Below are positions 1 to 51,709 of a DNA stretch of 64,000 nucleotides, in pieces. Under the pieces are notes generated by a model. It ran no database searches. It saw only the letters and a program-made list of their open reading frames with translations, and was not told where the DNA came from. This DNA comes from Thauera sp. (lineage in GTDB: Bacteria; Pseudomonadota; Gammaproteobacteria; Burkholderiales; Rhodocyclaceae), in contig NZ_DAOMPS010000014.1 of assembly GCF_035444905.1 (NCBI RefSeq), positions 4,439 to 68,438 of the forward strand. The letters are read 5' to 3'. Numbering within the stretch: the stretch's first letter is position 1; every line of letters starts with the position of its first letter. The translations under genes were made by a program, and so were the position numbers.

Positions 1-1341
1 GGCGCTCGCCGGGGTCGCGTTTGCGGGCGCGGCAGCGCCGAGCAGTTGGCGGCGGTAGCGCGGCAGCGCGAAAATCAGGCAGAGCGCGGTCAGCGCATAG
101 AGGACGACCGTGCTGGCGAGCGCATAGCGCAGGGCTTCCTGGCCGAGGCTGACGGCGAAGAAGTCGCTCAGGCCGCCGACGATGATCGGGCCGAGGCCGA
201 CGCCGAACAGCGTCATGCCCATCACGAAGATGGCGTTCGCCTGAGCCTGGCGGTTGGGCGGAAAGAGGTGGCTGATGGCACCGAAGCAGGGCACTGTCCA
301 CCAGGTGGCGGCGAAGCTGAAGGCCAGATAGAACAGGTAGGCCTGCGGAACGGCCATGCTGCCGAGGTGGAAGGCGGTGCCACTGGGCCACAGGTAGAAG
401 GCGAACCCGAGCGGCACGCTGAGCAGGCAGGCGATGACCGGTACGCCGAGCTGCCAGCCCGGGTCGCGCGCCACCAGGCGGTCGGTGACGCTGCCGCAAA
501 GCAGCGTGCCCACCGTCGCCGCGATGCCGCCGCCGAGGCCGACGAGCAGGCCGGCGTGCTGCATCGACAGACCATGCGAGCGGATCAGGAAGCTCGGGTT
601 CCAGGTGCCGATCGCGTAACCCATGATCGCGGCCAGGGTGCCGGCGACGACGATCAGCAGGAAGCCAGGCATGGCGAACAGGCTCCCCAGCGTGCGCTTC
701 CAGTTCTCCTGCGCGGCGTCGGCCGCCTCGCGCGTGGTGAGCGCCGCCGGGCGCGGGGCGCGGACGGTGAGCAGGAACGACAGGCCGAGCAGCACGCCCG
801 GCGCACCGATGGCGATGAAGGCCGTGCGCCAGCCATAGGTCTGCGCGATCCAGCCGCCCAGCCCGAGACCCAGGATTGCGCCCAGGCTCGGCCCCATCAG
901 GAACACCGACAGCGCGCGCGAGCGCTGCTTGGCGGGATAGAGGTCGGATACCATCGCCACCGAAGGCGCCGTGCCGCCGGCCTCGCCCACGGCGACCCCG
1001 ATGCGGAACAGCAGCAGCATCGCAAAGCTCGTCGCCACCCCGCACAGCATGGTCATCGCGCTCCACGCGATGCAGGCGAGGGCGATCACCGGCTTGCGCC
1101 CGATGCGATCGGCGAGGCGACCGAAGGGCAGGCCGAAAACGGTGTAGAAGATCGCGAACGCGACCCCCGACAACAAGCCGATCTGGGTGTCCGAGATGCC
1201 GAATTCGAGCTTGATCGGTTCGATCAGGATCGAGATCACCAGGCGGTCGATGTAATTGAAGACGTAGATGATCGCCAGCATCGCCAGGGCGTAGTGGGAG
1301 TGCCAGGTGACGCGTTGCTCAATACCGGGGCTTGCGTTCAC
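1..1341 (-). CDS. MFS-family transporter, C-terminal end beyond the window edge
   Basis: Not in the ORF track, because no stop lies inside the window. Reverse translation from GTG 1341 (GGAGG 6 nt upstream) stays open for all 447 codons down to position 1: VNASPGIEQRVTWHSHYALAMLAIIYVFNYIDR... It has the MFS loop motif LADRIGRKPVI and many hydrophobic segments. The + strand ORF 46..1368 is its Arg/Ala/Gly-rich shadow. Confidence 0.8.
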   Translation of the reverse strand, partial: MNASPGIEQRVTWHSHYALAMLAIIYVFNYIDRLVISILIEPIKLEFGISDTQIGLLSGVAFAIFYTVFGLPFGRLADRIGRKPVIALACIAWSAMTMLCGVATSFAMLLLFRIGVAVGEAGGTAPSVAMVSDLYPAKQRSRALSVFLMGPSLGAILGLGLGGWIAQTYGWRTAFIAIGAPGVLLGLSFLLTVRAPRPAALTTREAADAAQENWKRTLGSLFAMPGFLLIVVAGTLAAIMGYAIGTWNPSFLIRSHGLSMQHAGLLVGLGGGIAATVGTLLCGSVTDRLVARDPGWQLGVPVIACLLSVPLGFAFYLWPSGTAFHLGSMAVPQAYLFYLAFSFAATWWTVPCFGAISHLFPPNRQAQANAIFVMGMTLFGVGLGPIIVGGLSDFFAVSLGQEALRYALASTVVLYALTALCLIFALPRYRRQLLGAAAPANATPASA

Positions 1342-1494
1342 AGCCTGCCTCCATGCGGGGGTCGATGAATGGCGGACGCGGATCCGCCGACGTTGTGCCG
1401 CTATCGTCCGGCGCGCCCGCGGCGGCGGCATCGTCCATTCAGACGAAAGGCCCACCGCCGTCCGCCTCTTCCCGCCTGTGCAATGTCGTCCTCA

Positions 1495-1514
1495 TTAGTC
1501 TTAGTGGACGATGT
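1495..1514. promoter_or_regulatory. Copy of recurring motif TTAGTC-N5-GGACGATGT (core TAGTC-N6-GACGA), candidate operator
   Basis: TTAGTCttagtGGACGATGT lies 100 bp upstream of ATG 1614 in the MFS/SDR divergent region. An extra TCGTC half-site is at 1486..1490. The same architecture occurs at 4958, 5467, 9519 and 51690. Confidence 0.5.
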
Positions 1515-1613
1515 CCGCCTGTTCCATCCCGACAAAACTGCGCTCCATCGACTCGAGCGACGACTGCAACCGTGGTCGCCGACGCCCAAACGAGACAAGG
1601 AAGGAGACGACGG

Positions 1614-2348
1614 ATGAGCTTTGCAGACAAGGTGGTGTTCGTGACCGGTGCCGGTCAGGGCATGGGGCGCGCGATTGTGCGCCACTTCGGTGCGGCCGGT
1701 GCGCGCGTGGTGGCGGCCGATATCAACGCCGACGCGGCGTCTGCCGCGGTGGCCGAGCTGGGCGCAAAGGGCCTGGCGCTGGCCTGCAACGTGGCCGATC
1801 CGGCCTCGGTGAAATCGGCTTTCGAGGCCGTCGCCGAGCGTTTCGGCCGGCTCGACGTGCTCATCAACAGCGCCGGCATCGGCTCGGTCGATGCCTTCCT
1901 CGATACCCCCGACGACAACTGGCTGCGCGTCATCGGCGTGAACCTCACCGGCACCTTCCTGTGCTGCCGCGAGGGCGCACGCCTGATGCAGAAGAGCGGC
2001 GCCAAGGGCGCCATCATCAACGTCTCCAGCACCGCCGCGATGTCGGGCGAGGGCCCCAGCCACTACTGCGCCTCCAAGGCCGGCGTGATGGGTCTCACGC
2101 GCAGCATCGCGCGCGAGCTCGCCGCCAGCGGCATCCGCGTGAACACCATCGTCCCGGGGCCGACCAACACCCCGATGATGGCCGGCATCCCCGACGAGTG
2201 GATGCAGTCGATGATCAAGGCCATCCCGCTCGGCCGCATGTGCGAGCCCGAGGAGATCGCGCGCGTCGCCGGCTTCCTCGCCAGCGACGACGCCAGCTTC
2301 ATCACCGGGCAGAACATCGCCGTCAACGGCGGCATGGCCTTCATCTGA
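1614..2348 (+). CDS. Short-chain dehydrogenase/reductase (SDR)
   Basis: Track ORF 1332..2348 trimmed to ATG 1614, which is preceded by aaggagacgacgg. It has VTGAGQGMGRA (TGxxxGxG), NSAG and catalytic YCASKAG. Confidence 0.9.
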   Translation: MSFADKVVFVTGAGQGMGRAIVRHFGAAGARVVAADINADAASAAVAELGAKGLALACNVADPASVKSAFEAVAERFGRLDVLINSAGIGSVDAFLDTPDDNWLRVIGVNLTGTFLCCREGARLMQKSGAKGAIINVSSTAAMSGEGPSHYCASKAGVMGLTRSIARELAASGIRVNTIVPGPTNTPMMAGIPDEWMQSMIKAIPLGRMCEPEEIARVAGFLASDDASFITGQNIAVNGGMAFI

Positions 2349-2359
2349 GCGGCGCCGGC

Positions 2360-3001
2360 ATGACGACCTCCGCACCGCAGGCCGACCTGCTCGCCCGCAT
2401 CGACCGTCTCGAGTCGACCGAGGCCATCCGCCAGCTGGTGGCCCGGTATGCGCTGTCGCTCGACATGCGCGACCTCGACGCCCATGTGAACCTGTTCGCG
2501 CCCGACATCCGCGTCGGCCGCGAGAAGGTGGGCCGCGCCCATCTCAAGGCCTGGGTCGACGACACCCTGCGCAACCAGTTCTCCGGCACCTCGCACCACC
2601 TGGGCCAGCACGTCATCGAGTTCACCGACCCCGACCATGCCGTCGGCGTCGTGTACTCGAAGAACGAGCACGAGACCGGCCCGGAATGGGTGATCATGCA
2701 GATGTTGTATTGGGACGATTACGAGAGAATCGACGGGCAGTGGTATTTCCGCCGCCGCCTGCCGTGCTACTGGTATGCGACCGACCTGAACAAGCCGCCG
2801 ATCGGCGATCGCAAGATGCGCTGGCCGGGGCGTGAACCCTACGAGGGCAGCTTCCACGACCTGTTCCCGTCGTGGCGCGCGTTCTGGGCCGAACGTCCCG
2901 CCAAGGACCAGCTGCCCGAAGTGGCGGAACCCGCCGCGCTGGACCGCTTCCTCGCCACGCTGCGCCGTGGCGCTCCCGATCCCCGCATCCGCGTGCGCTG
3001 A
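2360..3001 (+). CDS. SnoaL/NTF2-like fold protein
   Basis: In-frame tail of track ORF 1511..3001 starting at ATG 2360, 12 nt after the SDR stop. The N-terminus RIDRLESTEAIRQLVARYALSLDMRDLD resembles SnoaL_4-type NTF2 domains. Confidence 0.7.
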   Translation: MTTSAPQADLLARIDRLESTEAIRQLVARYALSLDMRDLDAHVNLFAPDIRVGREKVGRAHLKAWVDDTLRNQFSGTSHHLGQHVIEFTDPDHAVGVVYSKNEHETGPEWVIMQMLYWDDYERIDGQWYFRRRLPCYWYATDLNKPPIGDRKMRWPGREPYEGSFHDLFPSWRAFWAERPAKDQLPEVAEPAALDRFLATLRRGAPDPRIRVR

Positions 3002-3056
3002 CGCGCGCGGTCGCTCTCCGAACAGCAACGCTCGAACACAACATGGAGAAGGGCGC

Positions 3057-4904
3057 ATGTCCGATTCTGCCGTCGTTATGAATCCGCCCGCGGCCCGCAG
3101 CAAGGTGGTCCCGCGCGAAGAAACCCAGGCCAAGCTCGACGCGCGCTCGCGCGCGGCCAATCTGATCAAGCCGGCCGACCGCTACACCGTGGCCGACCGC
3201 CTCGAGGAGCAGGCCGCGCGCTTCGGCGAGCGCGACTTCCTGATCTACGGCGGGCGCCGCTTCAGCTATGCCGAGGTGGACGCACGCGCCAACCAGGTCG
3301 CCCATGCCCTGCATGCGCGCGGCCTGCGCTGCGGCGACGTGTGCGCGCTGGCGATGGAGAACCGGCCCGAGTTCTTCTTCTACTGGTTCGGTCTCGCCAA
3401 GCTGGGCGTGGTGGTCGCGGTCATCAACACCCAGGTCAGCGGCCGTCCGCTCGCTCACGCGCTGGAGTCGACGCACGCCCGCGCCGTCGTGCTCGGCGAG
3501 GAGTGCCTCGAGAACTTCGCGCTCACGCCCGAGCGTCCCGCGCAGCCCCTGTACCTCGTCGCCGACCCCGAGAAGCCCGCCACCGCCGAGCATCGCGCGC
3601 TGGCGAGTGCCGATCTGAGCGCCGAGGTCGAGGCCGCCGCGCGCAGCCCCTTCCCGCGCGAAGGCCGTGCCGAGGTGCGCGCCGAGGAGTCGATGCTGCT
3701 GATCTTCACCTCGGGCACCACCGGCCTGCCCAAGGCGGCGCGCTACAGCCACATGCGCTGGATGTCCTCGGGCGACGTCATGCAGGTGACCCTCGAGGTG
3801 ACGCCCGATGACGTCTTCTACTGCTGCCTGCCGCTGTACCACGGCGCGGCGGCGACCTCGGTGACCTCCACCGCGCTGAAGTCGGGCAGCAGCATCGTGG
3901 TGCGGCGCAAGTTCAGCACGCGCGAGTTCTGGACCGACGTGCGCGCCAACGGCATCACCATCTTCCAGTACATCGGCGAGATCTGCCGCTACCTGCTCAA
4001 CGCGCCCGCCCAGGCCAACGACCGCGACCACAGCCTGCGCGCCATGCTCGGCGCCGGCCTCACCGCGGAGACCTGGACGCGCTGGCTCGATCGCTTCGGC
4101 CCGATCCAGATCTTCGAGGGCTGGGGTTCGACCGAGGCCAACACGGCGGTGATCAACGTCGACAACCACGTCGGCTCCTGCGGTCGCATCCCCGACTGGA
4201 ACAAGACCAACTTCCGCCTGGTGCGCTACGACGTCGAGACCGAATCGCATCCGCGCGACGAGAACGGGCACTACATCCTGTGCCAGCCGGGCGAGGTCGG
4301 CGAAGGCATCGCCTTCATCGTCAATCATCCCGAGATCGGCGGCGGGCGCTTCGAGGGCTACACCTCCGAAGAAGCCACCGAGAAGAAGATCGTGCGCAAC
4401 GTCTTCACCGAAGGCGATGCGTACTGGAGTTCAGGCGACCTACTGCGCTACGACGAGGACGGCTACTTCTACTTCGTCGACCGCATCGGCGACACCTTCC
4501 GCTGGAAGAGCGAGAACGTCTCCACCGCCGAGGTCGCCGATGCCTTGTCGGACTGCGCCGGCGTGGAGCTGATCAACATCTACGGGGTGAAGGTGCCCGG
4601 CCACGAGGGGCGTGCGGGCATGGCGGCCATCGTGATGCAGCCTGGCCACGCCTTCGATCCGAAGGCCTTCTACGCGCTCACCGAGGCCCGCCTGCCGCGC
4701 TATGCGGCGCCGCAGTTCGTGCGCGTATCGAGCGCCGCCGACCTCACCACCACCTACAAGCTGCGCAAGGTGGACCTGCAGCGGCAGGGCTACGACGACA
4801 AGGCCTTCGACGACCCGCTGTACGTGCGCGACGAGGCGGGCGCCACCTACGTGCCGTACTCGGCCGAGGCGCTCGCACGTGCGGGCCTGCCCCCGTTCGC
4901 CTGA
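3057..4904 (+). CDS. FATP/very-long-chain-type acyl-CoA synthetase
   Basis: Track ORF 2832..4904 trimmed to ATG 3057 (ggagaagggcgc upstream). It has the AMP-binding motif LLIFTSGTTGLPKAARYSH and the FATP-like stretch YWSSGDLLRYDEDGYFYFVDRIGDTFRWKSENV. Confidence 0.9.
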   Translation: MSDSAVVMNPPAARSKVVPREETQAKLDARSRAANLIKPADRYTVADRLEEQAARFGERDFLIYGGRRFSYAEVDARANQVAHALHARGLRCGDVCALAMENRPEFFFYWFGLAKLGVVVAVINTQVSGRPLAHALESTHARAVVLGEECLENFALTPERPAQPLYLVADPEKPATAEHRALASADLSAEVEAAARSPFPREGRAEVRAEESMLLIFTSGTTGLPKAARYSHMRWMSSGDVMQVTLEVTPDDVFYCCLPLYHGAAATSVTSTALKSGSSIVVRRKFSTREFWTDVRANGITIFQYIGEICRYLLNAPAQANDRDHSLRAMLGAGLTAETWTRWLDRFGPIQIFEGWGSTEANTAVINVDNHVGSCGRIPDWNKTNFRLVRYDVETESHPRDENGHYILCQPGEVGEGIAFIVNHPEIGGGRFEGYTSEEATEKKIVRNVFTEGDAYWSSGDLLRYDEDGYFYFVDRIGDTFRWKSENVSTAEVADALSDCAGVELINIYGVKVPGHEGRAGMAAIVMQPGHAFDPKAFYALTEARLPRYAAPQFVRVSSAADLTTTYKLRKVDLQRQGYDDKAFDDPLYVRDEAGATYVPYSAEALARAGLPPFA

Positions 4905-4926
4905 GGCGGGGCGGCAAACGATCGAT

Positions 4927-4954
4927 CGGCGCTCTTCGGAGCGCCGTTTTTTTT
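4927..4954 (+). terminator. Rho-independent terminator
   Basis: CGGCGCTC-TTCG-GAGCGCCG forms an 8-bp GC stem with a tetraloop, followed by T8. It starts 23 nt after stop 4904. Confidence 0.85.
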
Positions 4955-4957
4955 GAT

Positions 4958-4977
4958 TTAGTCCATTCGGACGATGT
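4958..4977. promoter_or_regulatory. Copy of recurring motif TTAGTC-N5-GGACGATGT
   Basis: TTAGTCcattcGGACGATGT lies immediately after the terminator and 143 bp upstream of ATG 5120. Confidence 0.5.
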
Positions 4978-5119
4978 CGCGCTTGCGCGCCTTCGACAAT
5001 CTACACACCGTGCAGGAGGAGACACCTGGGCGGCAGTCGCAGCGAAGCGGCGTCGCATCACGTTCCTGCAGGCGGCGTGCAGCGCGCACGCAAAACTGTA
5101 GCGCACGAAGGAGAAGCAC

Positions 5120-5323
5120 ATGATTACCAAGGCCCTGTTGTGCGGGTGCGTGTTTGGATGCCTCGCGGCCTTTGCGGCAATGCTCGATCGTGGCCATGCC
5201 CGGGTGCTCGACTCCCTGGTCCAGATCCCGGCCTGCGGCGCCAGCGAGACCGAGTGCCACACCACGGGTTCGCCCGCGAACGCCTCGACCGGCCGCTTCT
5301 TTGCGATGCTGGCGACGCACTGA
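5120..5323 (+). CDS. Hypothetical small Cys-containing protein with hydrophobic N-terminus (67 aa)
   Basis: Strong RBS gaaggagaagcac directly before the ATG. Third-codon positions are mostly G/C. The N-terminus MITKALLCGCVFGCLAAFAAML looks signal-like. Two hairpins follow. No family recognised. Confidence 0.35.
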   Translation: MITKALLCGCVFGCLAAFAAMLDRGHARVLDSLVQIPACGASETECHTTGSPANASTGRFFAMLATH

Positions 5324-5333
5324 AACATGCTCC

Positions 5334-5397
5334 GCGACCGCCGCTGCGGTCGCAACGAACGACGTGGCCCTGCCTTCGGAATCCGGAGGCAGGGCCA
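5334..5397 (+). terminator. Two tandem hairpins after the small ORF (possible terminator)
   Basis: GCGACCGC-cgct-GCGGTCGC at 5334..5353. A long hairpin TGGCCCTGCC...GGCAGGGCCA at 5365..5397 is followed by TGTTG, which is only a weak U-tract. Confidence 0.4.
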
Positions 5398-5466
5398 TGT
5401 TGCATGGGGGCGCCCGATCCTGCGCCGGCAGCTGCGCACCATGACCTAGGGTCTCCCCCGCTTCGC

Positions 5467-5486
5467 CTAGTCGATTTGAACGATTG
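5467..5486. promoter_or_regulatory. Copy of recurring motif (CTAGTC-N5-GAACGATTG)
   Basis: CTAGTCgatttGAACGATTG lies 75 bp upstream of ATG 5561, with the same spacing as the other copies. Confidence 0.45.
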
Positions 5487-5560
5487 CCGGCCGCAGCGCC
5501 TGTGGCATCGTTGAGCGCACTACAGAGCGGGCGGTGCCCGCATCAGCGAGGTGAGGGAGC

Positions 5561-6772
5561 ATGGGTCTCAAAGGAAACGCAGCAATTGTCGGCGCCGCGC
5601 AGTACCGGCCGGAGAAGTACGCGATCGCGCCACGGATGTTCCATCTCGAGCAGGTGGCCGACCTGGCCGGCCTTGCCCTGGCGGACGCCGGGCTCAAGGC
5701 CAGCGACATCGACGGCCTGGTGATCCACGGCCCGCAGTTCCACGAAGCGCAGGTCTTCGTGCCGGCGATGGCGGCGGAGTATCTCGGCCTGTCGCTCAAC
5801 TTCGCCGAAGTCGTCGACCTGGGCGGCTGCTCGTCGGTGGCGGCGGTGTGGCGCGCGGCGATGGCGGTCGAGATGGGCCTGTGCCAGGCCGTGCTGTGCG
5901 TGATTCCCGCGCGCATGGCGCCCTTCGGGCCGGACGAGGACCCGAGCTGGATGGCGCGGGCGATGCGCTTCGGTGGCCACAGCACCGCCTTCGGCGCCCC
6001 CGAGGCCGAGTTCGACCTGCCCTACGGTCACATGGGCCAGAACACCGGCTACGCGATGATCGCCCAGCGTTACGCGGCCAAGTACGGCTACGACCCGGTG
6101 GCGATGGCCAAGATCGCGGTCGACCAGCGCACCAACGCGCTCGCCAACCCGGACGCCAGCTTCTTCGGCAAGCTGCTCTCCATCGAGGACGTGCTCGCCA
6201 GCAAGATGGTCGCCGAGCCGCTGCGCGTGCTCGAGATCGTGATGCCGGTCGCTGGCGGTGCCGCCGTGATCGTGGCCTCCAAGGAAGTGGCGGCGCGGGC
6301 GAAGAACCGCGGCGCCTGCATCACCGGCTTCGGCGAGCACCTGTACTTCAAGTCGCCGACCTACGCGACCGAGATGACCGACACCCCGATCGGCCCTGCG
6401 GCCGAGCGCGCCTTCGCGATGGCGGGCATCCAGCGCAGCGACATCCACGCCGCGCAGCTCTACGACTGCTACACCATCACCGTGCTGCTGACGCTGGAAG
6501 ATGCCGGCTTCGCGCCCAAGGGCGAGGGTATGCGCTGGGTGCGCGAGCACGACCTGACCTACAAGGGCAACTTCCCGATGAACACCCACGGCGGGCAGCT
6601 GAGCTTCGGCCAGAGCGGCACCGCGGGCGGCATGTCGCAGGTCATCGAGGCCTTCCACCAGATTTCCGGCCGCGCCGGCGAGCGCCAGCTCAAGCGCTGC
6701 GACACCGTGTTCGTCTCGGGCACCGGTGGCGTGATGAGCGAGCAGGGCGCACTGATTCTCCAGGGAGCATGA
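5561..6772 (+). CDS. Thiolase-fold protein of the SCP-x/lipid-transfer (Ltp/BbsB-like) type
   Basis: 403-aa ORF. It has a thiolase-like fold (MNTHGGQLSFGQ, VSGTGGVMSEQG) but not the classical thiolase N-terminus. Its stop overlaps the next start (ATGA), and the next gene is a DUF35 partner. Confidence 0.88.
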   Translation: MGLKGNAAIVGAAQYRPEKYAIAPRMFHLEQVADLAGLALADAGLKASDIDGLVIHGPQFHEAQVFVPAMAAEYLGLSLNFAEVVDLGGCSSVAAVWRAAMAVEMGLCQAVLCVIPARMAPFGPDEDPSWMARAMRFGGHSTAFGAPEAEFDLPYGHMGQNTGYAMIAQRYAAKYGYDPVAMAKIAVDQRTNALANPDASFFGKLLSIEDVLASKMVAEPLRVLEIVMPVAGGAAVIVASKEVAARAKNRGACITGFGEHLYFKSPTYATEMTDTPIGPAAERAFAMAGIQRSDIHAAQLYDCYTITVLLTLEDAGFAPKGEGMRWVREHDLTYKGNFPMNTHGGQLSFGQSGTAGGMSQVIEAFHQISGRAGERQLKRCDTVFVSGTGGVMSEQGALILQGA

Positions 6773-7737
6773 CGAGCATGTCGACCAACAAACCCCTGCC
6801 GACGGCCACCGAGATCTCGGCACCGTTCTGGAACGGCCTCAAGGCAGGCCGCCTCACGATCCCGCAATGCAAGTCCTGCGGTCACTGGGTCTTCTTCCCC
6901 CGCCGCCATTGCGACAAGTGCTGGTCGCAGGACCTGGCGTGGAAGGAGGTCAAGGGTACGGGCACGCTCTACACCTATACGCTGACCCGCGTCCCGACAC
7001 TGCCCGACTTCGCCGACGAGATGCCGCAGAAGATGGCGGTGGTCGAGCTCGACGAAGGCGTGCGCATCAATACCACGCTGATCGGCGTGGATGAATCCGA
7101 GGTCAAGGTCGGCATGCGGGTCAAGCCTGTGTTCGACACGGTGAAATCCGATGGCACCGCGCTGCTGCGCTTCACCGCGGCGGACAAGGATCTCCCGTCC
7201 CGCATCGACAGCACGCCGACCGCGCTCGCCGCGGCCGCCGAGGCCCAGGCCAGCGCCGAGCCGGAGGCCGCGAAGCGCCAGGTGCGTTTCGACGACGAAG
7301 CGGCTATGAAGGCGCTGGTCAGCGAGACCTACTCGGCCTGGAGCAACCAGGTCGTGGTCGATCAGGCGCTGATCGACGAGTTCGCCAGGCTGTCGGGCGA
7401 CGACTACTGGATCCACACCGATCCCGAGCGCGCGCGCAAGCAGAGCCCCTTCGGCGGCACCATCGCCCACGGCGCGCTGGTGCAGGTGCTGCAGTCGCGC
7501 CTGCGCATCCCGCTCGACTTCGAGGTGGTCGGCTTCAACAACATGGTCAATTACGGCTCGAACCGCCTGCGCTTCCCGGCGCCGGTGCCGGCAGGATCGC
7601 GCATCCACGCGCGCTCGCGGGTCAAGTCGGTGGAGAAGCTGCCCAAGGGCATGCAGATGACGATGGAGATCGTGACCCATATCGTCGGCAGCGAGCGGCC
7701 GTCCGTCATCAACGATCTCGTGATCCTTTACATGTGA
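6769..7737 (+). CDS. DUF35 (Zn-ribbon/OB-fold) fused to a MaoC-like hot-dog hydratase domain
   Basis: Tail of track ORF 5551..7737. The N-terminal part has CKSCGHWVFFPRRHCDKC followed by an OB region. An Ala/Glu-rich linker follows. The C-terminal part has DDYWIHTDPERARKQSPFGGTIAHG and RLRFPAPVPAGSRI, paralogous to the MaoC gene at 31770. ATG 6778 is an alternative start. Confidence 0.85.
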   Translation: MTSMSTNKPLPTATEISAPFWNGLKAGRLTIPQCKSCGHWVFFPRRHCDKCWSQDLAWKEVKGTGTLYTYTLTRVPTLPDFADEMPQKMAVVELDEGVRINTTLIGVDESEVKVGMRVKPVFDTVKSDGTALLRFTAADKDLPSRIDSTPTALAAAAEAQASAEPEAAKRQVRFDDEAAMKALVSETYSAWSNQVVVDQALIDEFARLSGDDYWIHTDPERARKQSPFGGTIAHGALVQVLQSRLRIPLDFEVVGFNNMVNYGSNRLRFPAPVPAGSRIHARSRVKSVEKLPKGMQMTMEIVTHIVGSERPSVINDLVILYM

Positions 7738-7834
7738 GGCGCCGCCGTCCCGCGGTGCTCGATGTGCAGTTGTTCCTGTAGTGCGCAGTCGTAGTACCTG
7801 CAGTTTCGTTGCATGGTTGTCCTCCTCTCTTCCA

Positions 7835-7870
7835 GGCCGCCTCCCCGCAAGGGTTGGTGGCCGTTTTTTT
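7835..7870 (+). terminator. Rho-independent terminator
   Basis: GGCCGCCTCCCC-gcaa-GGGTTGGTGGCC hairpin followed by G+T7, about 100 nt after stop 7737. Confidence 0.75.
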
Positions 7871-7890
7871 GCTGCCTCGGCAGGAGAGGG

Positions 7891-9333
7891 CTAATTGGAG
7901 CCTTGGTTGTCCTCATCCGATCGGCGCTGGCCTTGCGCCTGTTGCCAAGCCGTGAATTCCGAGCGCCGCAGCCGGTAGCGGGCAATGTTGCCCTCATGCA
8001 GCTGGCGCAGGGCCGCCGTGAGCATTGCACGGAATGCCGCCAGGTCGGCTTCGATCGCGTGCGTACGTGCCTCCCTGGCGATGACGGTCTGGCTGGGGGG
8101 GCGCAAGCCCTTGACCACGGATTGCACTGCCTGGATCAGGGCTTCCCGGTACTTGATCTTGAGCGGATCGGGCTCGACCATCGTCTGCGTGATGGCCAGA
8201 TACCGCTGGCAGGACCGCTCGTAGGCCCAGACGAATACATCGCGCAGCAGGTCAATCCGGTTCAGTTCATATACGCCCAGAGTCCCTTCGACGTAGGCGC
8301 GTTCCGGTACATCGATGAAGGAAAGCGGACAAAGGTTGTGCTTGAAGAGCGGGATGTTGGCGCCAACGCGCGAGACGCGTTTGTTCACGTCTTCAAACGG
8401 CTGCAGGTAGGGTAGCTGCACCATCAGGAAGAAGGCCTGCTCGAACGGGTCGGGAATGGCAGTCGCCTTGTCCAGAAGAAGTGAAAAGCAGTCTTCGATG
8501 AGTTGCGGCAGCGCCAGCGGGTGAAACACCGTTCCCGAGATGTCCACCGGCCGACGGCGCAGGCGGCCGCTGGCTTCTTCATCGGGCATCAGGTCTTGCG
8601 ACAGGACCGCGTGCAGGTTCTTGAAGGTGAAGGCGTCAAGGCCCACCTCTTCCGCGCCCTCGATCAGCATCTCGATCGCCGCCTTGTGGTTCAGGATCAT
8701 CTGCGTTTCGATGGCGTCCTTACCCTTGGCGACCTGACCAAACTCGATCAGATTCTGGGTGTCGAGCCGGCTATAGGTGTTGCCCTCCAGTCTCGATGAG
8801 GCCCAGGACAGATCGACCAGCAGGCGGCTCAGGATGTCCCGTGCATAGGTACCTGCGGGTCGCTCGCTGTCGGACGTGCGCCCCATCTCGTGCAACTGGT
8901 GGCGCAGCGTTTCAGGCAGGTAGAAGGTTTCGCCGGGGACGTAAGCCTCCAGAAAGTCACGCTGATAACCGACCGGGCGGCGATGCATCAGGGGTCGCCT
9001 CATCTGGTCGCGGATGGCGGCACCTTCCGGGGATAAGGGCACATACAGCGCCGTTTCGGTCGGTGCCGTGGTAGTCGGTGTCGCCGGACCAATGGCTTGC
9101 ACCGCGCGATCGGAGGCCGGCTTGTAGACCAGGGCGACGCTTTCGCCCTCGGTGGTCAGGCGCCGCTCGACGACGAGCCTCTGCAGGCGGCGTTGCAATG
9201 TACGACGGTTGGGCTTGGTGCCTTGGCGCCGAGTCATTTCGAGTTCAATGTCGGCAATGCCGATTCCGACCGGATGTGCTCCGACGACGGATGCGATCAG
9301 CTCGAGTTCTTGTTGCAGCGTGGTGCGTGGCAT
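7891..9333 (-). CDS. Fic-domain protein with N-terminal wHTH-like region and degenerate catalytic motif
   Basis: Fic_N-type SxxxEGN (SSRLEGN, 8782..8799). At 8368..8403 the core motif reads QPFEDVNKRVSR instead of HPFx(D/E)GNGRxxR. The track ORF runs to 9528, but that extension covers the palindromes at 9358..9421 and the motif copy at 9519..9538. ATG 9333 has GAGGAG 9 nt upstream. The region looks lower in GC than its flanks. Confidence 0.8.
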   Translation of the reverse strand: MPRTTLQQELELIASVVGAHPVGIGIADIELEMTRRQGTKPNRRTLQRRLQRLVVERRLTTEGESVALVYKPASDRAVQAIGPATPTTTAPTETALYVPLSPEGAAIRDQMRRPLMHRRPVGYQRDFLEAYVPGETFYLPETLRHQLHEMGRTSDSERPAGTYARDILSRLLVDLSWASSRLEGNTYSRLDTQNLIEFGQVAKGKDAIETQMILNHKAAIEMLIEGAEEVGLDAFTFKNLHAVLSQDLMPDEEASGRLRRRPVDISGTVFHPLALPQLIEDCFSLLLDKATAIPDPFEQAFFLMVQLPYLQPFEDVNKRVSRVGANIPLFKHNLCPLSFIDVPERAYVEGTLGVYELNRIDLLRDVFVWAYERSCQRYLAITQTMVEPDPLKIKYREALIQAVQSVVKGLRPPSQTVIAREARTHAIEADLAAFRAMLTAALRQLHEGNIARYRLRRSEFTAWQQAQGQRRSDEDNQGSN

Positions 9334-9357
9334 CGCGAAAAGCTCCTCGGGGGATTC

Positions 9358-9395
9358 TGTCGCGCTTTGTCGCGCCTGAGCGACAAAGCGCGACA
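9358..9395. promoter_or_regulatory. Perfect 16-bp inverted repeat (candidate operator of the Fic gene)
   Basis: TGTCGCGCTTTGTCGC-gcctga-GCGACAAAGCGCGACA lies 25-62 nt upstream of ATG 9333. Further GTCGCGC half-sites are at 9402..9408 and 9415..9421. Confidence 0.5.
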
Positions 9396-9518
9396 AGAGT
9401 GTGTCGCGCAAGTGGTCGCGCTTCAAGTTGAATCTTTCGCCTGCCGGCTCACCTGCAGCGAGCACGCTTGACACCTCGTGCGGAGGCTTGGGCAGGTCAC
9501 CTTCGGGCAGGCGTTTTC

Positions 9519-9538
9519 GTAGTCTCAACGGACGATGA
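9519..9538. promoter_or_regulatory. Copy of recurring motif (GTAGTC-N5-GGACGATGA)
   Basis: GTAGTCtcaacGGACGATGA lies 62 bp upstream of ATG 9600. Confidence 0.45.
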
Positions 9539-9599
9539 TGGCGCCGCCGCCTCTTCGCACAATGCCCTCACGTATCCGACCAATCTCTTGGGGGCAGCA

Positions 9600-10502
9600 A
9601 TGATCGACATCCGCGGTTTGGCCTACTTCGTCGCGCAGATCGACGACCTCGCCGAATGGAAGCATTACGCCGAGGAGGTGCTCGGCATGATGACCTCGAC
9701 CGCGCCTGGCGGCGGTCTGTACATCAAGATGGACGAGCGCCCCTTCCGCATCCTGGTGGTGCAGGGCGCCGAGCGCCGCTATGTGGCGTCGGGCTGGGAG
9801 CTGGCGGGTGACGACGCCTTCAAGGCCGCGCTCGCCGAACTCGACGCCAAGGGCGTGGGCTACGAGCTCGCCGATGCCGCCACCGTCGCCCAGCGCGGCA
9901 TGCAGGCGGTCGCGGTGGTGACCGACCCCTCGGGCAACCGCCACGAGCTGTGCTGGGGCCACCTGTCGGACTGCCAGCCCTTCGTGTCGCCGCAGGGCGT
10001 GCCGCGCTTCCTCACCGGCGACATGGGCCTGGGCCACACCGTGATGCCGGCCCCCAACTTCGACGCCACCGCGGCCTTCTTCCGCGACGTGCTCGGTTTC
10101 GGCCTGTCGGACATCTTCAATTTCCGTCCCGATCCCTCGGCGCCGCCGGTGCGCATCCACTTCCTGCACTGCAACAACGCCCGCCACCACAGCCTGGCGA
10201 TCGCCGAGTACCCGGTGCCGAGCGGTTGCGTGCATGTGATGGTCGAGGTCGACTCGATGACCGAGGTCGGCCGCGCCCACGACCGCCGCATCGCGCACAA
10301 GGTGCCGCTGTCGGCCACCCTGGGCCAGCACCTCAACGACCGCATGATCTCCTTCTACATGAAGACCCCCTCGGGCTTCGACCTCGAGTACGGCTACGGT
10401 GGGCTGCAGTGCGACTGGGAGCGCCACAACGCCTTCGAATTCACCCGCGTCAGCATCTGGGGCCACGACTTCGGCGTGGGTCAGCAGGAACAGGCCGCCT
10501 GA
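9600..10502 (+). CDS. Type I extradiol ring-cleavage dioxygenase (HsaC/TesB/BphC-like, VOC fold)
   Basis: Track ORF 9468..10502 trimmed to ATG 9600. It is 300 aa with two VOC modules: MIDIRGLAYFV..., GLGHTVMPAP, HHSLAIAE and FYMKTPSGFDLEYG. Confidence 0.9.
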   Translation: MIDIRGLAYFVAQIDDLAEWKHYAEEVLGMMTSTAPGGGLYIKMDERPFRILVVQGAERRYVASGWELAGDDAFKAALAELDAKGVGYELADAATVAQRGMQAVAVVTDPSGNRHELCWGHLSDCQPFVSPQGVPRFLTGDMGLGHTVMPAPNFDATAAFFRDVLGFGLSDIFNFRPDPSAPPVRIHFLHCNNARHHSLAIAEYPVPSGCVHVMVEVDSMTEVGRAHDRRIAHKVPLSATLGQHLNDRMISFYMKTPSGFDLEYGYGGLQCDWERHNAFEFTRVSIWGHDFGVGQQEQAA

Positions 10503-10528
10503 GCGCGGCCGGCAACAGGAAAGAATCC

Positions 10529-11404
10529 ATGAACAAACTGATGACGACGGCCGATGTCGTCGCCCAATTGCGCGATGGCATGACCATCGGTTTCGGTGGC
10601 TGGGGCCCGCGGCGCAAGCCGATGGCGATCGTGCGCGAGATCCTGCGCTCGGACGTGAAGGACCTCACCGTGGTGTCCTACGGCGGCCCGGACGTGGGCA
10701 TGCTGTGCGCCGCCGGCAAGGTCAGGAAGCTGATCTTCGGCTTCGCCACGCTGGATGCCATTCCGCTCGAGCCCTGGTACCGCAAGGTGCGCGAGGCGGG
10801 CAAGCTCGAACTGCTCGAGCTCGACGAAGGCATGTGGCAGTGGGGCCTGCGTGCCGCCGGCATGCGTGTGCCCTTCCTGCCCACGCGCTGCGGTCTGGCC
10901 ACCGATGTCACCAAGCTCAACCCCGAGCTCAAGACCATCCAGTCGCCGTATGACGACGGCGAGGTGCTGCTGGCGATGCCGGCCCTGAAGCTCGACGTCG
11001 CGCTGGTGCACGTCAATGTCGCCGACCAGCTCGGCAACACCCTGATCCAGGGCGGTGACCCGTATTTCGACCACCTCGTCGCACGTGCGGCAGACGCCTG
11101 CTACGTGTCGGCCGAGCGTGTCGAGGAGCGCCTGGCGCTCACCCCCGACCAGGCCCGCCTCAACACCTTCGAGCGCTACCTGGTGAAGGGCGTGGTACAT
11201 GCGCCCTGCGGCGCCCACCCGACCACCTGCGCGCCCGAGTACGGCTGGGACATGAGCCACTTCAAGCGCTACGTCGCCAGCGCGGCGGAAGAGGGCGGCT
11301 GGCAGGCCTACATGGACGAGTTCGTCACCCCGGGCGAGGCCGCCTACCAGGACAAGAACGGCGGCATCGAGCGCATGGGCAAGCTGCCCCTGCCGGTGTT
11401 TTGA
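10529..11404 (+). CDS. ipdA: CoA-transferase subunit A (IpdA/ScdL1-like)
   Basis: Tail of track ORF 9950..11404 from ATG 10529 (aggaaagaatcc upstream). It has GMTIGFGGWGPRRKPMA and ELLELDEGMW, typical of the glutaconate-CoA-transferase A family. It sits just after the dioxygenase, as in steroid ring C/D clusters. Confidence 0.85.
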   Translation: MNKLMTTADVVAQLRDGMTIGFGGWGPRRKPMAIVREILRSDVKDLTVVSYGGPDVGMLCAAGKVRKLIFGFATLDAIPLEPWYRKVREAGKLELLELDEGMWQWGLRAAGMRVPFLPTRCGLATDVTKLNPELKTIQSPYDDGEVLLAMPALKLDVALVHVNVADQLGNTLIQGGDPYFDHLVARAADACYVSAERVEERLALTPDQARLNTFERYLVKGVVHAPCGAHPTTCAPEYGWDMSHFKRYVASAAEEGGWQAYMDEFVTPGEAAYQDKNGGIERMGKLPLPVF

Positions 11405-11418
11405 GGAGCGCGAGCGGC

Positions 11419-12219: not shown

Positions 12220-12241
12220 GGCCGCAAAGGAAGAAGCAGAG

Positions 12242-14292: not shown

Positions 14293-14355
14293 GCGAGCAG
14301 CCCGAGCCCCACCGCAACCCCAGACCCGACAAGAGACCCAACGGAGCCCGATAAC

Positions 14356-15108: not shown

Positions 15109-15115
15109 GGACACC

Positions 15116-16285: not shown

Positions 16286-16298
16286 GGAAGGGGCCGCC

Positions 16299-18523: not shown

Positions 18524-18537
18524 GAGAAGGGATCGAC

Positions 18538-19413: not shown

Positions 19414-19414
19414 C

Positions 19415-21001: not shown

Positions 21002-21011
21002 TTGATCGCAG

Positions 21012-21302: not shown

Positions 21303-21392
21303 GCTCGGCGTTCATGCGTGCTTTGAAGGCCTCAAGATCAAAGGGCTGTGCGGGTCCGCTGTTCTCGCCCTCGATCAGAGCAGCACGGATCG
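21255..21392. repeat. Direct repeat copy A (parE 5-prime end / parD 3-prime end), paired with 23299..23436
   Basis: By-eye ungapped alignment to 23299..23436 gives about 80% identity, for example ATCTCGAACCGC and TTCATGCGTGCTTTGAAGGC...TCCGCTGTTCTCGCCCTCG. Confidence 0.8.
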
Positions 21393-30897: not shown

Positions 30898-30913
30898 CCG
30901 TCCGTTTTGACGA
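30898..30913. promoter_or_regulatory. Degenerate copy of recurring palindrome (CCGTC-N6-GACGA)
   Basis: CCGTCcgttttGACGA lies 28 bp upstream of ATG 30941, or 61 bp upstream of the alternative GTG 30974. TATAAA follows at about 30935. Confidence 0.3.
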
Positions 30914-30940
30914 TGCCGGGCTAGCCCGACCCCCCTATAA

Positions 30941-48628: not shown

Positions 48629-48738
48629 GCGGGCCTCCTCTTCGTTGTGAACCAGTGTGCAATTCATCGGGCTGGCACCAGATCCCGGCCTGAAACCCCG
48701 ACCCTGGCTGATTGTCAGGGCCGGTGCCGGGGCGCGCA

Positions 48739-48754
48739 TCCCCTGTTTGGACGA
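48739..48754. promoter_or_regulatory. Half-conserved copy of recurring palindrome (TCCCC-N6-GACGA)
   Basis: ctgtttGGACGATGG. The right half is conserved and the left half is weak. It lies in the kshA/MBL divergent region. Confidence 0.25.
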
Positions 48755-48796
48755 TGGTCGGCGTGCGCGGGGCAGGGCGGCGTGATGACGGGCTTA

Positions 48797-48812
48797 TCGT
48801 CCTTTTGGACGT
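48797..48812. promoter_or_regulatory. Copy of recurring palindrome (TCGTC-N6-GACGT)
   Basis: TCGTCcttttgGACGT lies 64 bp upstream of ATG 48876 and 169 bp upstream of the kshA start. Confidence 0.35.
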
Positions 48813-51689: not shown

Positions 51690-51709
51690 TTAGTCCCATC
51701 GGACGATGT
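51690..51709. promoter_or_regulatory. Copy of recurring motif TTAGTC-N5-GGACGATGT
   Basis: TTAGTCccatcGGACGATGT lies 131 bp upstream of ATG 51840. It differs from the 4958 copy only within the 5-nt spacer (ccatc versus cattc). Confidence 0.5.

What the first reader, a model, noticed from the sequence alone, without database searches (positions are those of the whole stretch)
1486..1514. Recurring imperfect palindrome T(A/C)GTC-N6-GACGA upstream of at least five catabolic transcription units
Five intergenic sites share the same 20-bp architecture, all in the same orientation on the + strand:
- 1495 TTAGTCttagtGGACGATGT
- 4958 TTAGTCcattcGGACGATGT
- 51690 TTAGTCccatcGGACGATGT
- 9519 GTAGTCtcaacGGACGATGA
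- 5467 CTAGTCgatttGAACGATTG

Each lies 62-143 bp upstream of a start codon that begins a + strand unit:
- SDR at 1614
- small ORF at 5120
- thiolase-like gene at 5561
- extradiol dioxygenase at 9600
- DUF1329 gene at 51840

The core is an imperfect inverted repeat (TAGTC / GACGA, 4 of 5 symmetric), which suggests a dimeric regulator. It does not fit a sigma-70 or sigma-54 promoter, and it does not resemble the KstR/KstR2 operators I recall from actinobacterial steroid regulons. The only regulator in the window is a TetR whose own flanks carry a different palindrome. The cognate factor is therefore probably encoded elsewhere. This looks like the operator of a cluster-wide regulon.
Basis: seen in the sequence. 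Interest (0 to 1): 0.75.

Follow-up and report, generated by a model that had tools for sequence, protein, structure and literature searches.

The report
Conserved steroid-regulon promoter box
The repeated T(A/C)GTC-N5-GGACGATG box is real and sits at a fixed place in the promoters of steroid-degradation operons in many beta- and gammaproteobacteria, where it most likely binds a steroid-responsive PAS-LuxR activator that this window does not encode.

Summary
All five sites exist, against 0 expected by chance. A sixth strong site lies on the minus strand at 1429-1446, facing the MFS transporter gene. Weaker copies precede kshA and the SDR-MaoC-thiolase operon.

The window is from a Thauera species and carries a 9,10-seco steroid catabolic cluster. 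The same box precedes the tesB orthologue in 79 of 80 species genomes (Thauera, Zoogloea, Aromatoleum, Pseudomonas, Halopseudomonas, Stutzerimonas) and on a 43% GC Vibrio plasmid.

In 178 unique sites, a sigma-70-type -10 hexamer (xAxxxT) starts 38 or 39 bp after the first T in 94%. The box therefore spans about -51 to -34 and overlaps a poor -35. This is the geometry of an activator-dependent (class II) promoter, not of a free-standing operator.

The best candidate factor is a PAS plus LuxR-type (GerE HTH) regulator of about 390 aa. It is absent from the window. It is encoded beside or inside box-driven operons in sister Thauera strains, Aromatoleum, Halopseudomonas and Vibrio. In Geopseudomonas it follows DUF1302-DUF1329, where only a degenerate copy of the box is present. 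Binding and homology to Comamonas TeiR/TesR are not shown. I found no description of the motif in the literature I could search.

The parts
1496..1513 (+). Box TAGTCTTAGTGGACGATG; promoter of the SDR (1614-2348) and acyl-CoA synthetase (2832-4904) unit. Predicted -10 is AAAACT at 1534-1539.
   Evidence: The orthologous box precedes the SDR orthologue in 37 loci, including Pseudomonas.
1429..1446 (-). Predicted -10 is GACGAT at 1408-1403.
   Evidence: The same 18-mer stands before the MFS orthologue in L004, L005, L007 and L013.
4959..4976 (+). Box TAGTCCATTCGGACGATG, directly after an intrinsic terminator (4927-4946 plus T run); promoter of a conserved 67-aa ORF (5120-5323). Predicted -10 is CAATCT at 4997-5002.
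   Evidence: Small-ORF homologues with a box are seen in L002, L007 and L014.
5468..5485 (+). Box TAGTCGATTTGAACGATT; promoter of the thiolase-like (5561-6772) and ChsH2-like (6772-7737) unit. Predicted -10 is CATCGT at 5506-5511.
   Evidence: Synteny with other Thauera begins at 5446-5467, at most 22 bp before the box.
9520..9537 (+). Box TAGTCTCAACGGACGATG; promoter of the tesB operon (9600 to about 21001: TesB, CoA transferase, hydratases, acyl-CoA dehydrogenases, thiolase, SDR, amidase). Predicted -10 is CACAAT at 9558-9563, with the predicted start near 9570.
   Evidence: The box is conserved about 66 bp before the tesB ATG in 79 of 80 species genomes, with a one-mismatch variant in the 80th. 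It is also on the Vibrio plasmid and in Burkholderia. Synteny starts at 9514-9520.
51691..51708 (+). Box TAGTCCCATCGGACGATG; promoter of the DUF1329 (51840-53222) and DUF1302 (53255-54868) unit. Predicted -10 is AACAAT at 51730-51735.
   Evidence: A box precedes DUF1329-DUF1302 on the Vibrio plasmid (record 7389+). A degenerate box precedes DUF1302-DUF1329-regulator in Geopseudomonas.
48795..48812 (-). Weak variant ACGTCCAAAAGGACGATA in the divergent kshA / MBL-hydrolase region. No -10 at the canonical distance.
   Evidence: The same variant, ACGTCCAAAAGGACGATG, lies in the orthologous MBL / MFS-KshA region of the Vibrio plasmid (record 173530).
48737..48754 (-). Degenerate box TCGTCCAAACAGGGGATG with -10 GACAAT (48716-48711) at the canonical +38; candidate kshA promoter. 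The true kshA start is ATG 48628, giving 368 aa.
30898..30915 (+). Degenerate box CCGTCCGTTTTGACGATG with -10 TATAAA (30936-30941); candidate promoter of the SDR-MaoC-thiolase operon (probable start GTG 30974, RBS GAGG).
   Evidence: The orthologous Vibrio operon carries TAGTCCGGTTTGACGATG, the same TTGACGATG variant (record 157820-).

Best explanation
The box is the binding site of a dimeric, steroid-responsive transcription activator and forms part of sigma-70-type promoters. Its consensus is T(A/C)GTC-YCWWY-GGACGATG, an imperfect 6-4-6 inverted repeat T[A/C]GTCY-N4-RGACGA.

A -10 hexamer (xAxxxT) lies 38-39 bp downstream of the first T. The inferred transcription start is therefore near +50/51. 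The box spans about -51 to -34, and its dyad centre is at about -42.5 to -43.5. Its promoter-proximal half (GGACGATG) overlaps a poor -35 (ATGnnn, 17 bp from the -10).

This is class II geometry: the bound dimer would contact RNA polymerase and substitute for the missing -35. Unidirectional promoters keep the asymmetric TAGTC distal half. Some divergent gene pairs share one symmetric TCGTC...GACGA site.

The most likely factor is a PAS + C-terminal LuxR/GerE-HTH regulator of about 380-410 aa. This is the type called 'TeiR-like' or 'similar to TesR' in the steroid literature. The gene is not in this window. In sister Thauera strains it sits directly upstream of the tesB box, where this strain has a Fic-domain gene.

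Shown: the sites, their conservation, the fixed -10 geometry, and the genomic linkage with the regulator family.
Inferred: the transcription starts, activation rather than repression, the identity of the factor, and the steroid signal.
For: 1. The sites are non-random and intergenic.

2. The box is deeply conserved at orthologous promoters. For tesB it is present in 79 of 80 species genomes across two proteobacterial classes. It is also found at the SDR, thiolase-like, MFS and small-ORF promoters. It is retained in a 43% GC Vibrio plasmid and, as a variant, in Burkholderia.

3. A replicon-wide test was run on Vibrio plasmid pVa1 (176 kb). A matrix trained on non-Vibrio sites gives 12 hits of at least 17 bits (11 sites), against 0.23 in shuffles. 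All lie in intergenic regions before steroid operons, and none lies in the exopolysaccharide half.

4. The geometry is fixed. xAxxxT starts at +38 in 78% and at +39 in 16% of 178 unique sites, against 1-2% at most other offsets tested (offset 41 gives 26%). A at +39 is 97% conserved among 150 sites. All 154 TAGTC-type sites have the -10 on the GGACGATG side.

5. No consensus sigma-70 promoter is called at the four sites scanned (window 1200-9700), which means the -35 is poor there. A terminator abuts site 4959. Synteny blocks start 0-22 bp before the box.

6. The regulator family is physically linked to the box:
- Its gene is adjacent to the tesB box in Thauera L002, L006, L008, L011 and L012.
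- It is followed directly by a box in Halopseudomonas and related loci L033, L052 and L060.
- It lies inside box-driven operons in Aromatoleum anaerobium (MCP-Aldh-regulator) and on pVa1 (ETFbeta-ETFalpha-regulator).
- It is the third gene of a DUF1302-DUF1329-regulator operon with a degenerate box in Geopseudomonas.
- A perfect palindrome lies 2.4 kb from the gene in Paraburkholderia.
- It is the only transcription factor annotated within the steroid part of pVa1.

7. The HTH recognition region (ISRNTAR-HLRAIFAKTGV) is nearly invariant among members that are 33-63% identical overall, which fits an invariant DNA target.

8. Literature:
- Proteobacterial steroid genes, including the tesB-to-tesR cluster, need the LuxR-type activator TesR/TeiR.
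- Deleting a TeiR-like gene delays cholate degradation in P. stutzeri Chol1.
- Mechanisms are otherwise 'largely unknown' (PMC8399759, PMC6678751, PMC6895838, PMC12239570).
Against: - No binding, transcription-start or expression data exist for any of these sites.
- Homology of the candidate family to C. testosteroni TeiR/TesR was not shown. No Comamonas sequence could be retrieved, so it is unknown whether the experimentally TesR-dependent Comamonas promoters carry the box.
- The regulator family is large (710 hits) and is not restricted to steroid clusters.
- Some family members have no box within 10 kb. These are a Thauera paralogue beside a molybdenum hydroxylase (L081) and a Steroidobacteraceae member (L089/L090).
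- N. aromaticivorans pNL2 has a distant homologue but no box before its tesB-like gene.
- A site overlapping the -35 could equally serve a repressor.
- The strictly conserved A in TAGTC is not explained by a simple symmetric dimer.
Confidence: 0.6

Rival explanations
1. The box is a repressor operator. A dimeric repressor (TetR-, IclR- or GntR-type, or the LuxR-type protein acting negatively) would sit on the -35 and be released by a steroid metabolite, as KstR and KstR2 are in actinobacteria.
For: The site overlaps the -35 position. Steroid regulons in actinobacteria, and the edc cluster of Caenibius, are repressor-controlled. A TetR gene is in the window.
Against: - The box-to-(-10) distance is fixed to within 1 bp across more than ten non-homologous promoter classes. 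That is typical of class II activators. From general knowledge, not tested here, repressor operators need no such fixed position.
- The core promoters are weak, with no consensus promoter called at the sites scanned.
- Genetics in Comamonas and in P. stutzeri Chol1 indicate positive control.
- A different inverted repeat (GGAAT-N4-ATTCC) lies just upstream of the window TetR gene.
- No TetR gene is consistently linked with the box.
Confidence: 0.17
2. The box is an activator site, but for a factor other than the PAS-LuxR family. Candidates are a CRP/FNR-type protein (same 5-6-5 layout and -41.5/-42.5 position) or a regulator encoded far from the clusters.
For: The architecture TAGTC-N6-GACGA and its position resemble class II CRP/FNR sites. 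The window and many Pseudomonas loci have no PAS-LuxR gene within 10 kb of tesB. Some PAS-LuxR paralogues lack nearby boxes.
Against: - The PAS-LuxR gene is the only regulator repeatedly found beside or inside box-driven operons in five genera.
- It is the only transcription factor annotated in the steroid part of pVa1.
- The sequence does not match the CRP consensus (TGTGA-N6-TCACA) or the FNR consensus (TTGAT-N4-ATCAA), both recalled from memory.
Confidence: 0.15
3. The box is a promoter element read directly by an alternative sigma factor (ECF or sigma-54), or it is a recombination or mobile-element boundary, given that synteny blocks start at it.
For: Orientation is strictly conserved and synteny breaks coincide with the box.
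Against: - GGACGAT ends 21 bp before the -10, which is too far for a sigma -35 element.
- There is no GG-N10-GC pattern.
- The downstream element is a classical xAxxxT -10.
- No transposase, integrase or repeat structure accompanies the sites.
- Synteny starting at a promoter is expected for any operon.
Confidence: 0.04

Closest known systems
lux-box / tra-box type class II activator sites of LuxR-family (GerE HTH) dimers
   Same: Both are dyad-symmetric sites of 16-20 bp centred near -42.5 that overlap a weak -35 at a fixed distance from the -10. The candidate factor has a C-terminal GerE-type HTH. The 6-4-6 half-site layout also recalls the ComA box (recalled from memory).
   Different: The sequence is unrelated. 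The candidate factor carries a PAS-like sensor rather than an acyl-homoserine-lactone domain. The distal half-site is a conserved variant (TAGTC) rather than a mirror image. Binding has not been shown.
TeiR/TesR, the LuxR-type activator of steroid degradation in Comamonas testosteroni
   Same: It is a positive regulator needed for the tesB-to-tesR and tesA clusters. It is LuxR-type and about 390 aa (the length is recalled from memory, not from a paper read here). 'TeiR-like' genes are reported in the P. stutzeri Chol1 cluster. The box sits before tesB, tesA2/tesEFG-like, kshA and side-chain operons, which are the kinds of genes TesR controls.
   Different: I found no DNA target for TeiR/TesR in the literature I could search. 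Sequence homology between the family found here and TeiR was not tested, because no Comamonas sequence was obtainable. TeiR is also described as a membrane-associated kinase, so direct DNA binding is itself not settled.
KstR and KstR2 operators of actinobacterial cholesterol regulons
   Same: Both are a short palindrome repeated before many steroid-catabolic operons, and both define a pathway-wide regulon.
   Different: KstR and KstR2 are TetR-family repressors. Their consensus sequences differ (TnnAACnnGTTnnA and AnCAAGnnCTTGnT, from memory). From general knowledge, their position relative to the promoter is not fixed. KstR homologues are reported absent from bile-acid-degrading Proteobacteria.
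Class II CRP/FNR-dependent promoters
   Same: Both have a 5-6-5 inverted repeat centred about 41.5-42.5 bp upstream of the start that replaces the -35.
   Different: The half-site sequence differs, and no CRP/FNR-family gene is linked to the clusters.

Membership tests
Class II (-35-overlapping) activator-dependent sigma-70 promoter | Factor site centred about 41.5-42.5 bp upstream of the transcription start, at a fixed distance from the -10 | tested here: met
   xAxxxT starts at +38/+39 in 94% of 178 unique sites. The dyad centre is 30.5 bp before the -10 hexamer, which corresponds to -42.5/-43.5. The transcription start is inferred, not mapped.
Class II (-35-overlapping) activator-dependent sigma-70 promoter | Recognisable -10 but poor -35 | tested here: met
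   The -10 hexamers are CACAAT, CATCGT, AACAAT, TATAAA and similar. Only T16 and G17 of a -35-like ATGnnn are conserved. The consensus scan of window 1200-9700 calls no sigma-70 promoter at the four sites in that range.
Class II (-35-overlapping) activator-dependent sigma-70 promoter | Transcription depends on the activator | not testable with these tools
   This needs reporter fusions or in vitro transcription.
LuxR/FixJ (GerE-HTH) family binding site | Inverted repeat suited to a dimer of tetrahelical HTH domains | tested here: met
   The repeat is T[A/C]GTCY-N4-RGACGA. Perfect palindromes exist in L088 (TCGTCCATATGGACGA) and L014. Bidirectional use is seen in L086, L091 and L098.
LuxR/FixJ (GerE-HTH) family binding site | Cognate GerE-HTH regulator encoded with the regulon | tested here: inconclusive
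   The regulator is absent from the window. It is present beside or inside box-driven operons in Thauera, Halopseudomonas, Aromatoleum, Geopseudomonas, Vibrio and Burkholderia loci. It is absent within 10 kb of tesB in most Pseudomonas loci.
LuxR/FixJ (GerE-HTH) family binding site | Direct binding of the protein to the box | not testable with these tools
   This needs EMSA, footprinting or DAP-seq.
TeiR/TesR regulon of Comamonas testosteroni | Regulator homologous to TeiR/TesR | not tested
   The architecture matches (PAS-like domain plus C-terminal GerE HTH, about 390 aa). No TeiR sequence was available, and no Comamonas protein appeared in the top 120 hits.
TeiR/TesR regulon of Comamonas testosteroni | Box present before the TesR-dependent operons of C. 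testosteroni (tesB, tesA1/tesA2) | not tested
   Comamonas loci were not among those retrievable. The orthologous operons in other genera do carry the box.
KstR/KstR2 operators | Match to the KstR or KstR2 palindrome and a linked TetR repressor | not tested
   By eye the box sequence is unrelated to the KstR/KstR2 consensus sequences as recalled from memory. No scan against those operators was run. The only window TetR (41556-42296) has a different inverted repeat (GGAAT-N4-ATTCC) just upstream.
Sigma-54 or ECF-sigma promoter | GG-N10-GC, or a -35/-10 pair spaced 16-17 bp apart | tested here: not met
   There is no GG-N10-GC pattern. GGACGAT ends 21 bp before a classical xAxxxT -10.

The most novel reading that the evidence does not exclude
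The box is the so far undescribed DNA target of the TeiR/TesR-type PAS-LuxR steroid regulators. Together with its fixed -10, it would form a portable steroid-inducible promoter module that travels with catabolic gene blocks across beta- and gammaproteobacteria, including onto a Vibrio plasmid.

The invariant TAGTC distal half-site would then encode promoter direction for an otherwise symmetric dimer: asymmetric sites fire one way and symmetric TCGTC...GACGA sites fire both ways.

In this Thauera strain the regulon would be controlled in trans, because the local regulator block has been replaced by a Fic-domain gene.
Probability: 0.4. Interest if true: 0.65.

Novelty: new member of a known kind. 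Interest (0 to 1): 0.55.

Why it matters
Reviews state that the regulation of steroid and bile-acid degradation in Proteobacteria is largely unknown beyond the genetic requirement for TeiR/TesR. This box gives three practical handles:

1. A sequence-level signature of the regulon that can be scanned in any genome or metagenome. It could delimit steroid-inducible operons, including transporters (MFS, DUF1329/DUF1302, MMPL) and a conserved 67-aa ORF of unknown role.
2. A concrete, testable target for the PAS-LuxR regulators.
3. A compact promoter, about 55 bp from box to predicted start, that could be used for steroid biosensors.

It also shows that one promoter design has been kept from 43% to 68% GC hosts.

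Tried and rejected
- **Regulator in the window.** I searched the window for a GerE-type HTH or a homologue of the candidate regulator by tblastn and found none. Pfam scans of essentially all ORFs found only one TetR.
- **Walking outside the window.** An exact look-up of the SDR product found no record. The DUF1329 look-up returned only near-identical contigs with no added context.
- **Apparent contig match.** A regulator homologue (P0012) seemed to lie on the Thauera WP-1-like contig because both contigs are 19,654 bp long. This is a coincidence. The P0012 contig carries a molybdenum hydroxylase cluster and has no box.
- **Fic gene as a regulator partner.** A Fic gene neighbours the regulator in Geopseudomonas, and a Fic gene occupies the regulator's place in the window. 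The two Fic proteins are not detectably related, so I dropped this lead.
- **Comamonas testosteroni.** I tried to reach it through TesB and regulator homologue searches. It was not among the listed hits, so the key test in the experimentally studied organism could not be run.
- **Literature.** Searches for the motif strings and for a TeiR/TesR binding site found nothing relevant. The original TeiR paper is not held.
- **Other readings.** Sigma-54, ECF-sigma and UP-element readings were rejected on geometry and composition.
Full report
**1. The observation**

The pattern TAGTC-N5-GRACGAT occurs exactly five times in the window, at 1496, 4959, 5468, 9520 and 51691, all on the + strand. None of 100 dinucleotide-preserving shuffles gave any match. 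The gaps from the box to the start codons are 100, 143, 75, 62 and 131 nt.

Allowing mismatches reveals a sixth strong site on the minus strand, at 1446->1429 (TCGTCTGAATGGACGATG). It faces the MFS transporter gene. By homology that gene starts at GTG 1341, 87 nt downstream.

A weight matrix built from orthologous sites gives six hits above 20 bits in the 64 kb, and all six are intergenic. Of the 20 hits above 6 bits, 15 are intergenic, although intergenic DNA is only a few per cent of the window. Shuffles give 0-6 such hits.

**2. Context**

The window has 68% GC. Its TesB-type dioxygenase is 99% identical to that of Thauera sp. WH-1.

Pfam scans show a 9,10-seco steroid and bile-acid catabolic cluster:

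| Coordinates | Strand | Product |
|---|---|---|
| 1-1341 | - | MFS transporter |
| 1614 onward | + | SDR |
| 2832 onward | + | acyl-CoA synthetase |
| 5120-5323 | + | conserved 67-aa ORF |
| 5561-7737 | + | thiolase-like and ChsH2-like side-chain proteins |
| 9600-21001 | + | TesB, then CoA transferase, hydratases, acyl-CoA dehydrogenases, thiolase, SDR, amidase |
| 30974-33456 | + | SDR-MaoC-thiolase |
| 38551-41398 | - | sulfatase and its radical-SAM maturase |
| 41556 onward | + | TetR |
| 47522-48628 | - | KshA |
| 51840-54868 | + | DUF1329 and DUF1302 |
| 55-64 kb | - | beta-oxidation block |

An island inserted at 21.0-30.9 kb carries a PIN toxin, a type I restriction-modification system and HipA. 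The TetR is the only regulator found. No GerE-type HTH is present.

**3. Conservation**

I fetched loci around the tesB orthologue from 80 species genomes. The exact pattern lies about 66 bp before the tesB ATG in 79 of them. These include Thauera, Zoogloea, Aromatoleum, Pseudomonas, Halopseudomonas, Geopseudomonas and Stutzerimonas. The 80th, an Aromatoleum MAG, has TAATC in place of TAGTC.

The box also precedes the orthologues of the SDR (37 loci, including Pseudomonas), the thiolase-like gene, the MFS gene and the small ORF.

Between Thauera strains, sequence similarity begins at 9514-9520 and at 5446-5467. That is 0-22 bp upstream of the boxes at 9520 and 5468, while the DNA further upstream is unrelated.

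The box survives in very different base compositions. On the 43% GC plasmid pVa1 of Vibrio alfacsensis, the tesB promoter reads TAGTCTTAATGGACGATGA-N19-GATAAT. In Burkholderia arboris it reads TCGTCCCAACAGACGATG-N20-CAGAAT. The tesB-like gene of Novosphingobium aromaticivorans pNL2 has no box.

**4. A replicon-wide test**

I assembled all 176 kb of pVa1 and scanned it with a matrix trained only on non-Vibrio sites. This gave 12 hits of at least 17 bits, representing 11 sites. Shuffles gave 0.23 on average.

Every site lies in an intergenic region before a steroid-catabolic unit:
- flavin reductase / tesEFG-like genes
- DUF1329-DUF1302
- YCF48/MMPL transporter
- alpha/beta hydrolase
- acyl-CoA ligase
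- the tesB operon
- acyl-CoA dehydrogenase and ferredoxin reductase
- ETFbeta-ETFalpha-regulator
- the ECH/SDR divergent pair
- SDR-MaoC-thiolase
- MFS-KshA

No site lies in the exopolysaccharide half of the plasmid.

Two weak window sites have the same unusual variants at the orthologous Vibrio promoters:

| Promoter | Window site | Vibrio pVa1 site |
|---|---|---|
| kshA | ACGTCCAAAAGGACGATA (48812-48795) | ACGTCCAAAAGGACGATG |
| SDR-MaoC-thiolase | CCGTCCGTTTTGACGATG (30898-30915) | TAGTCCGGTTTGACGATG |

This argues that these weak sites are functional.

**5. Anatomy**

The consensus is T(A/C)GTC-YCWWY-GGACGATG. Taking the first T as position 0, A at +39 is 97% conserved and T at +43 is 83% conserved among 150 unique sites. 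A at +51 is enriched, at 63%.

In 178 unique sites, a hexamer of form xAxxxT starts at +38 in 78% and at +39 in 16%. It starts at most other offsets tested in only 1-2%; offset 41 gives 26%. This is the signature of a sigma-70 -10 hexamer at a fixed distance.

The start should therefore be near +50/51. The box spans about -51 to -34, and the dyad centre of TAGTC-N6-GACGA is at about -42.5 to -43.5. The -35 position (+15 to +20, 17 bp before the -10) reads ATGnnn, so only a fragment of TTGACA is present. This explains why the conserved block runs past the palindrome into 'ATG' on one side only.

The consensus scan of window 1200-9700, which covers four of the sites, calls no sigma-70 promoter at them. 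It does find an intrinsic terminator (4927-4946 plus T run) immediately before the box at 4959.

All 154 TAGTC-type sites have the -10 on the GGACGATG side. Only 9 also have one on the other side, which is about what chance would give. Symmetric TCGTC...GACGA sites occur in divergent regions. In three cases one site has -10 hexamers on both sides: the ECH/SDR pair in Geopseudomonas, in a Pseudomonas-like contig and in Vibrio.

**6. Mechanism**

A spacing fixed to within 1 bp, across more than ten non-homologous promoter classes and from 43% to 68% GC, points to a mechanical constraint. The bound protein must touch RNA polymerase. That is the class II activator arrangement, also used by lux-box proteins and CRP/FNR.

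A repressor covering the -35 remains possible. It is disfavoured by the fixed geometry and the weak core promoters. It is also disfavoured by published genetics:
- TesR/TeiR is a positive regulator required for the tesB-to-tesR and tesA clusters in Comamonas testosteroni.
- Deletion of a TeiR-like gene delays cholate degradation in P. stutzeri Chol1.

The sources are PMC6678751, PMC8399759, PMC6895838 and PMC8700777. A strong steroid-responsive promoter upstream of tesB is also assumed in Comamonas work.

**7. Which factor**

A family of proteins of about 380-410 aa is physically linked with the box. Its members have weak PAS hits in the middle and a C-terminal GerE/LuxR HTH.

| Organism / locus | Arrangement |
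|---|---|
| Thauera L002, L006, L008, L011, L012 | Regulator gene, with a 3-alpha-hydroxysteroid dehydrogenase gene, lies directly upstream of the tesB box. The window has a Fic-domain gene in that place. Three other strains have nothing there. |
| Halopseudomonas and relatives (L033, L052, L060) | A box follows the gene immediately. |
| Aromatoleum anaerobium (L094) | One of two back-to-back boxes drives an MCP-aldehyde dehydrogenase-regulator operon. The other drives the tesA2/tesEFG-like operon. |
| Vibrio pVa1 | A box drives ETFbeta-ETFalpha-regulator. This is the only transcription factor annotated in the steroid part of the plasmid. |
| Geopseudomonas | The gene is third in a DUF1302-DUF1329-regulator operon that has a degenerate box. 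|
| Paraburkholderia pallida | A perfect palindrome TCGTCCATATGGACGA lies 2.4 kb from the gene. |
| Burkholderia arboris | The gene lies 17 kb from the tesB box. |

The HTH recognition region is almost invariant among members that are only 33-63% identical overall.

There are limits to this evidence:
- The family is large and is not confined to steroid clusters.
- Two members have no box nearby.
- I could not obtain any Comamonas sequence. Homology to TeiR/TesR, and the presence of the box at the TesR-dependent promoters, therefore remain untested.
- A 2025 paper describes the LuxR-type gene next to progesterone BVMO genes as 'similar' to TesR (PMC12239570).

**8. Comparison and novelty**

In kind, this is a transcription-factor binding site embedded in a class II promoter, which is a well-known arrangement. 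As a specific motif and regulon, I found no description of it. The motif strings are absent from the searchable literature. Reviews call regulation in steroid-degrading Proteobacteria largely unknown.

It does not resemble a KstR/KstR2 operator as I recall those sequences; that comparison was made by eye and no scan was run. It is not a sigma-54 or ECF promoter on geometry. I file it as a new member of a known kind.

Its value is practical:
- a scannable signature of the proteobacterial steroid regulon
- a concrete target for the TeiR-like regulators
- a compact inducible promoter

**9. Verdict**

It is a regulon site for a dimeric factor encoded outside the window. It is, however, part of a sigma-70 promoter and is probably an activator site.
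- Confidence that it is a promoter-embedded factor-binding site: about 0.9.
- Confidence that it activates: about 0.7.
- Confidence that the factor is the PAS-LuxR family: about 0.6.

Noticed in passing
window 21000-30900: An island is inserted between the end of the tesB operon (amidase, ends 21001) and the promoter of the SDR-MaoC-thiolase operon. It carries a PIN-domain gene (21815-22363), type I restriction-modification genes (HsdS 23339-25873, HsdM 25105-26574, HsdR 26741-29137; all on the - strand) and HipA (29206-30501, -). On the Vibrio plasmid, toxin-antitoxin genes also follow the same amidase.
   Followed up: partly
window 7870-9514: This is a variable spot between the ChsH2-like gene and the tesB box. 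Here it holds a lower-GC (about 60%) Fic-domain gene on the - strand (7894 to about 9024). In T. mechernichensis, T. humireducens and related strains it holds a BVMO, an esterase, the PAS-LuxR regulator and a 3-alpha-hydroxysteroid dehydrogenase. In three other strains it holds nothing.
   Followed up: partly
window 5120-5323: A conserved 67-aa ORF with a hydrophobic N-terminus and several cysteines has its own box-bearing promoter. It is bracketed by hairpins: an intrinsic terminator called at 4927-4946 and a stem-loop seen by eye near 5368-5397. Homologues occur in Thauera and Aromatoleum loci (L002, L007, L014). It has no Pfam or NCBIfam match.
   Followed up: partly
window 41480-41556: Upstream of the TetR gene there is an AT-rich stretch and the inverted repeat GGAAT-TCGC-ATTCC. 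This differs from the box and may mark a second regulon in the cluster. I did not search for further copies.
   Followed up: no
window 38551-41398 (-): A sulfatase and a radical-SAM/SPASM maturase lie inside the steroid cluster. This suggests use of sulfated steroids or bile salts.
   Followed up: no
L081 1-15330: A Thauera-like paralogue of the PAS-LuxR regulator sits beside a molybdenum hydroxylase of the xanthine-dehydrogenase family (three subunits), a TonB receptor and a PQQ dehydrogenase. This may be the anaerobic steroid pathway. No box lies within 10 kb.
   Followed up: partly
L094 6503-6723: In Aromatoleum anaerobium the regulator is co-transcribed with a methyl-accepting chemotaxis protein from a box-bearing promoter. 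This recalls the reported role of TeiR in steroid chemotaxis.
   Followed up: no
L057: A 2.86 Mb contig labelled Gordonia sp. IEGM753 carries a Pseudomonas-like tesB locus (76% identity) with Pseudomonas-type boxes. The record may be mislabelled or contaminated.
   Followed up: no
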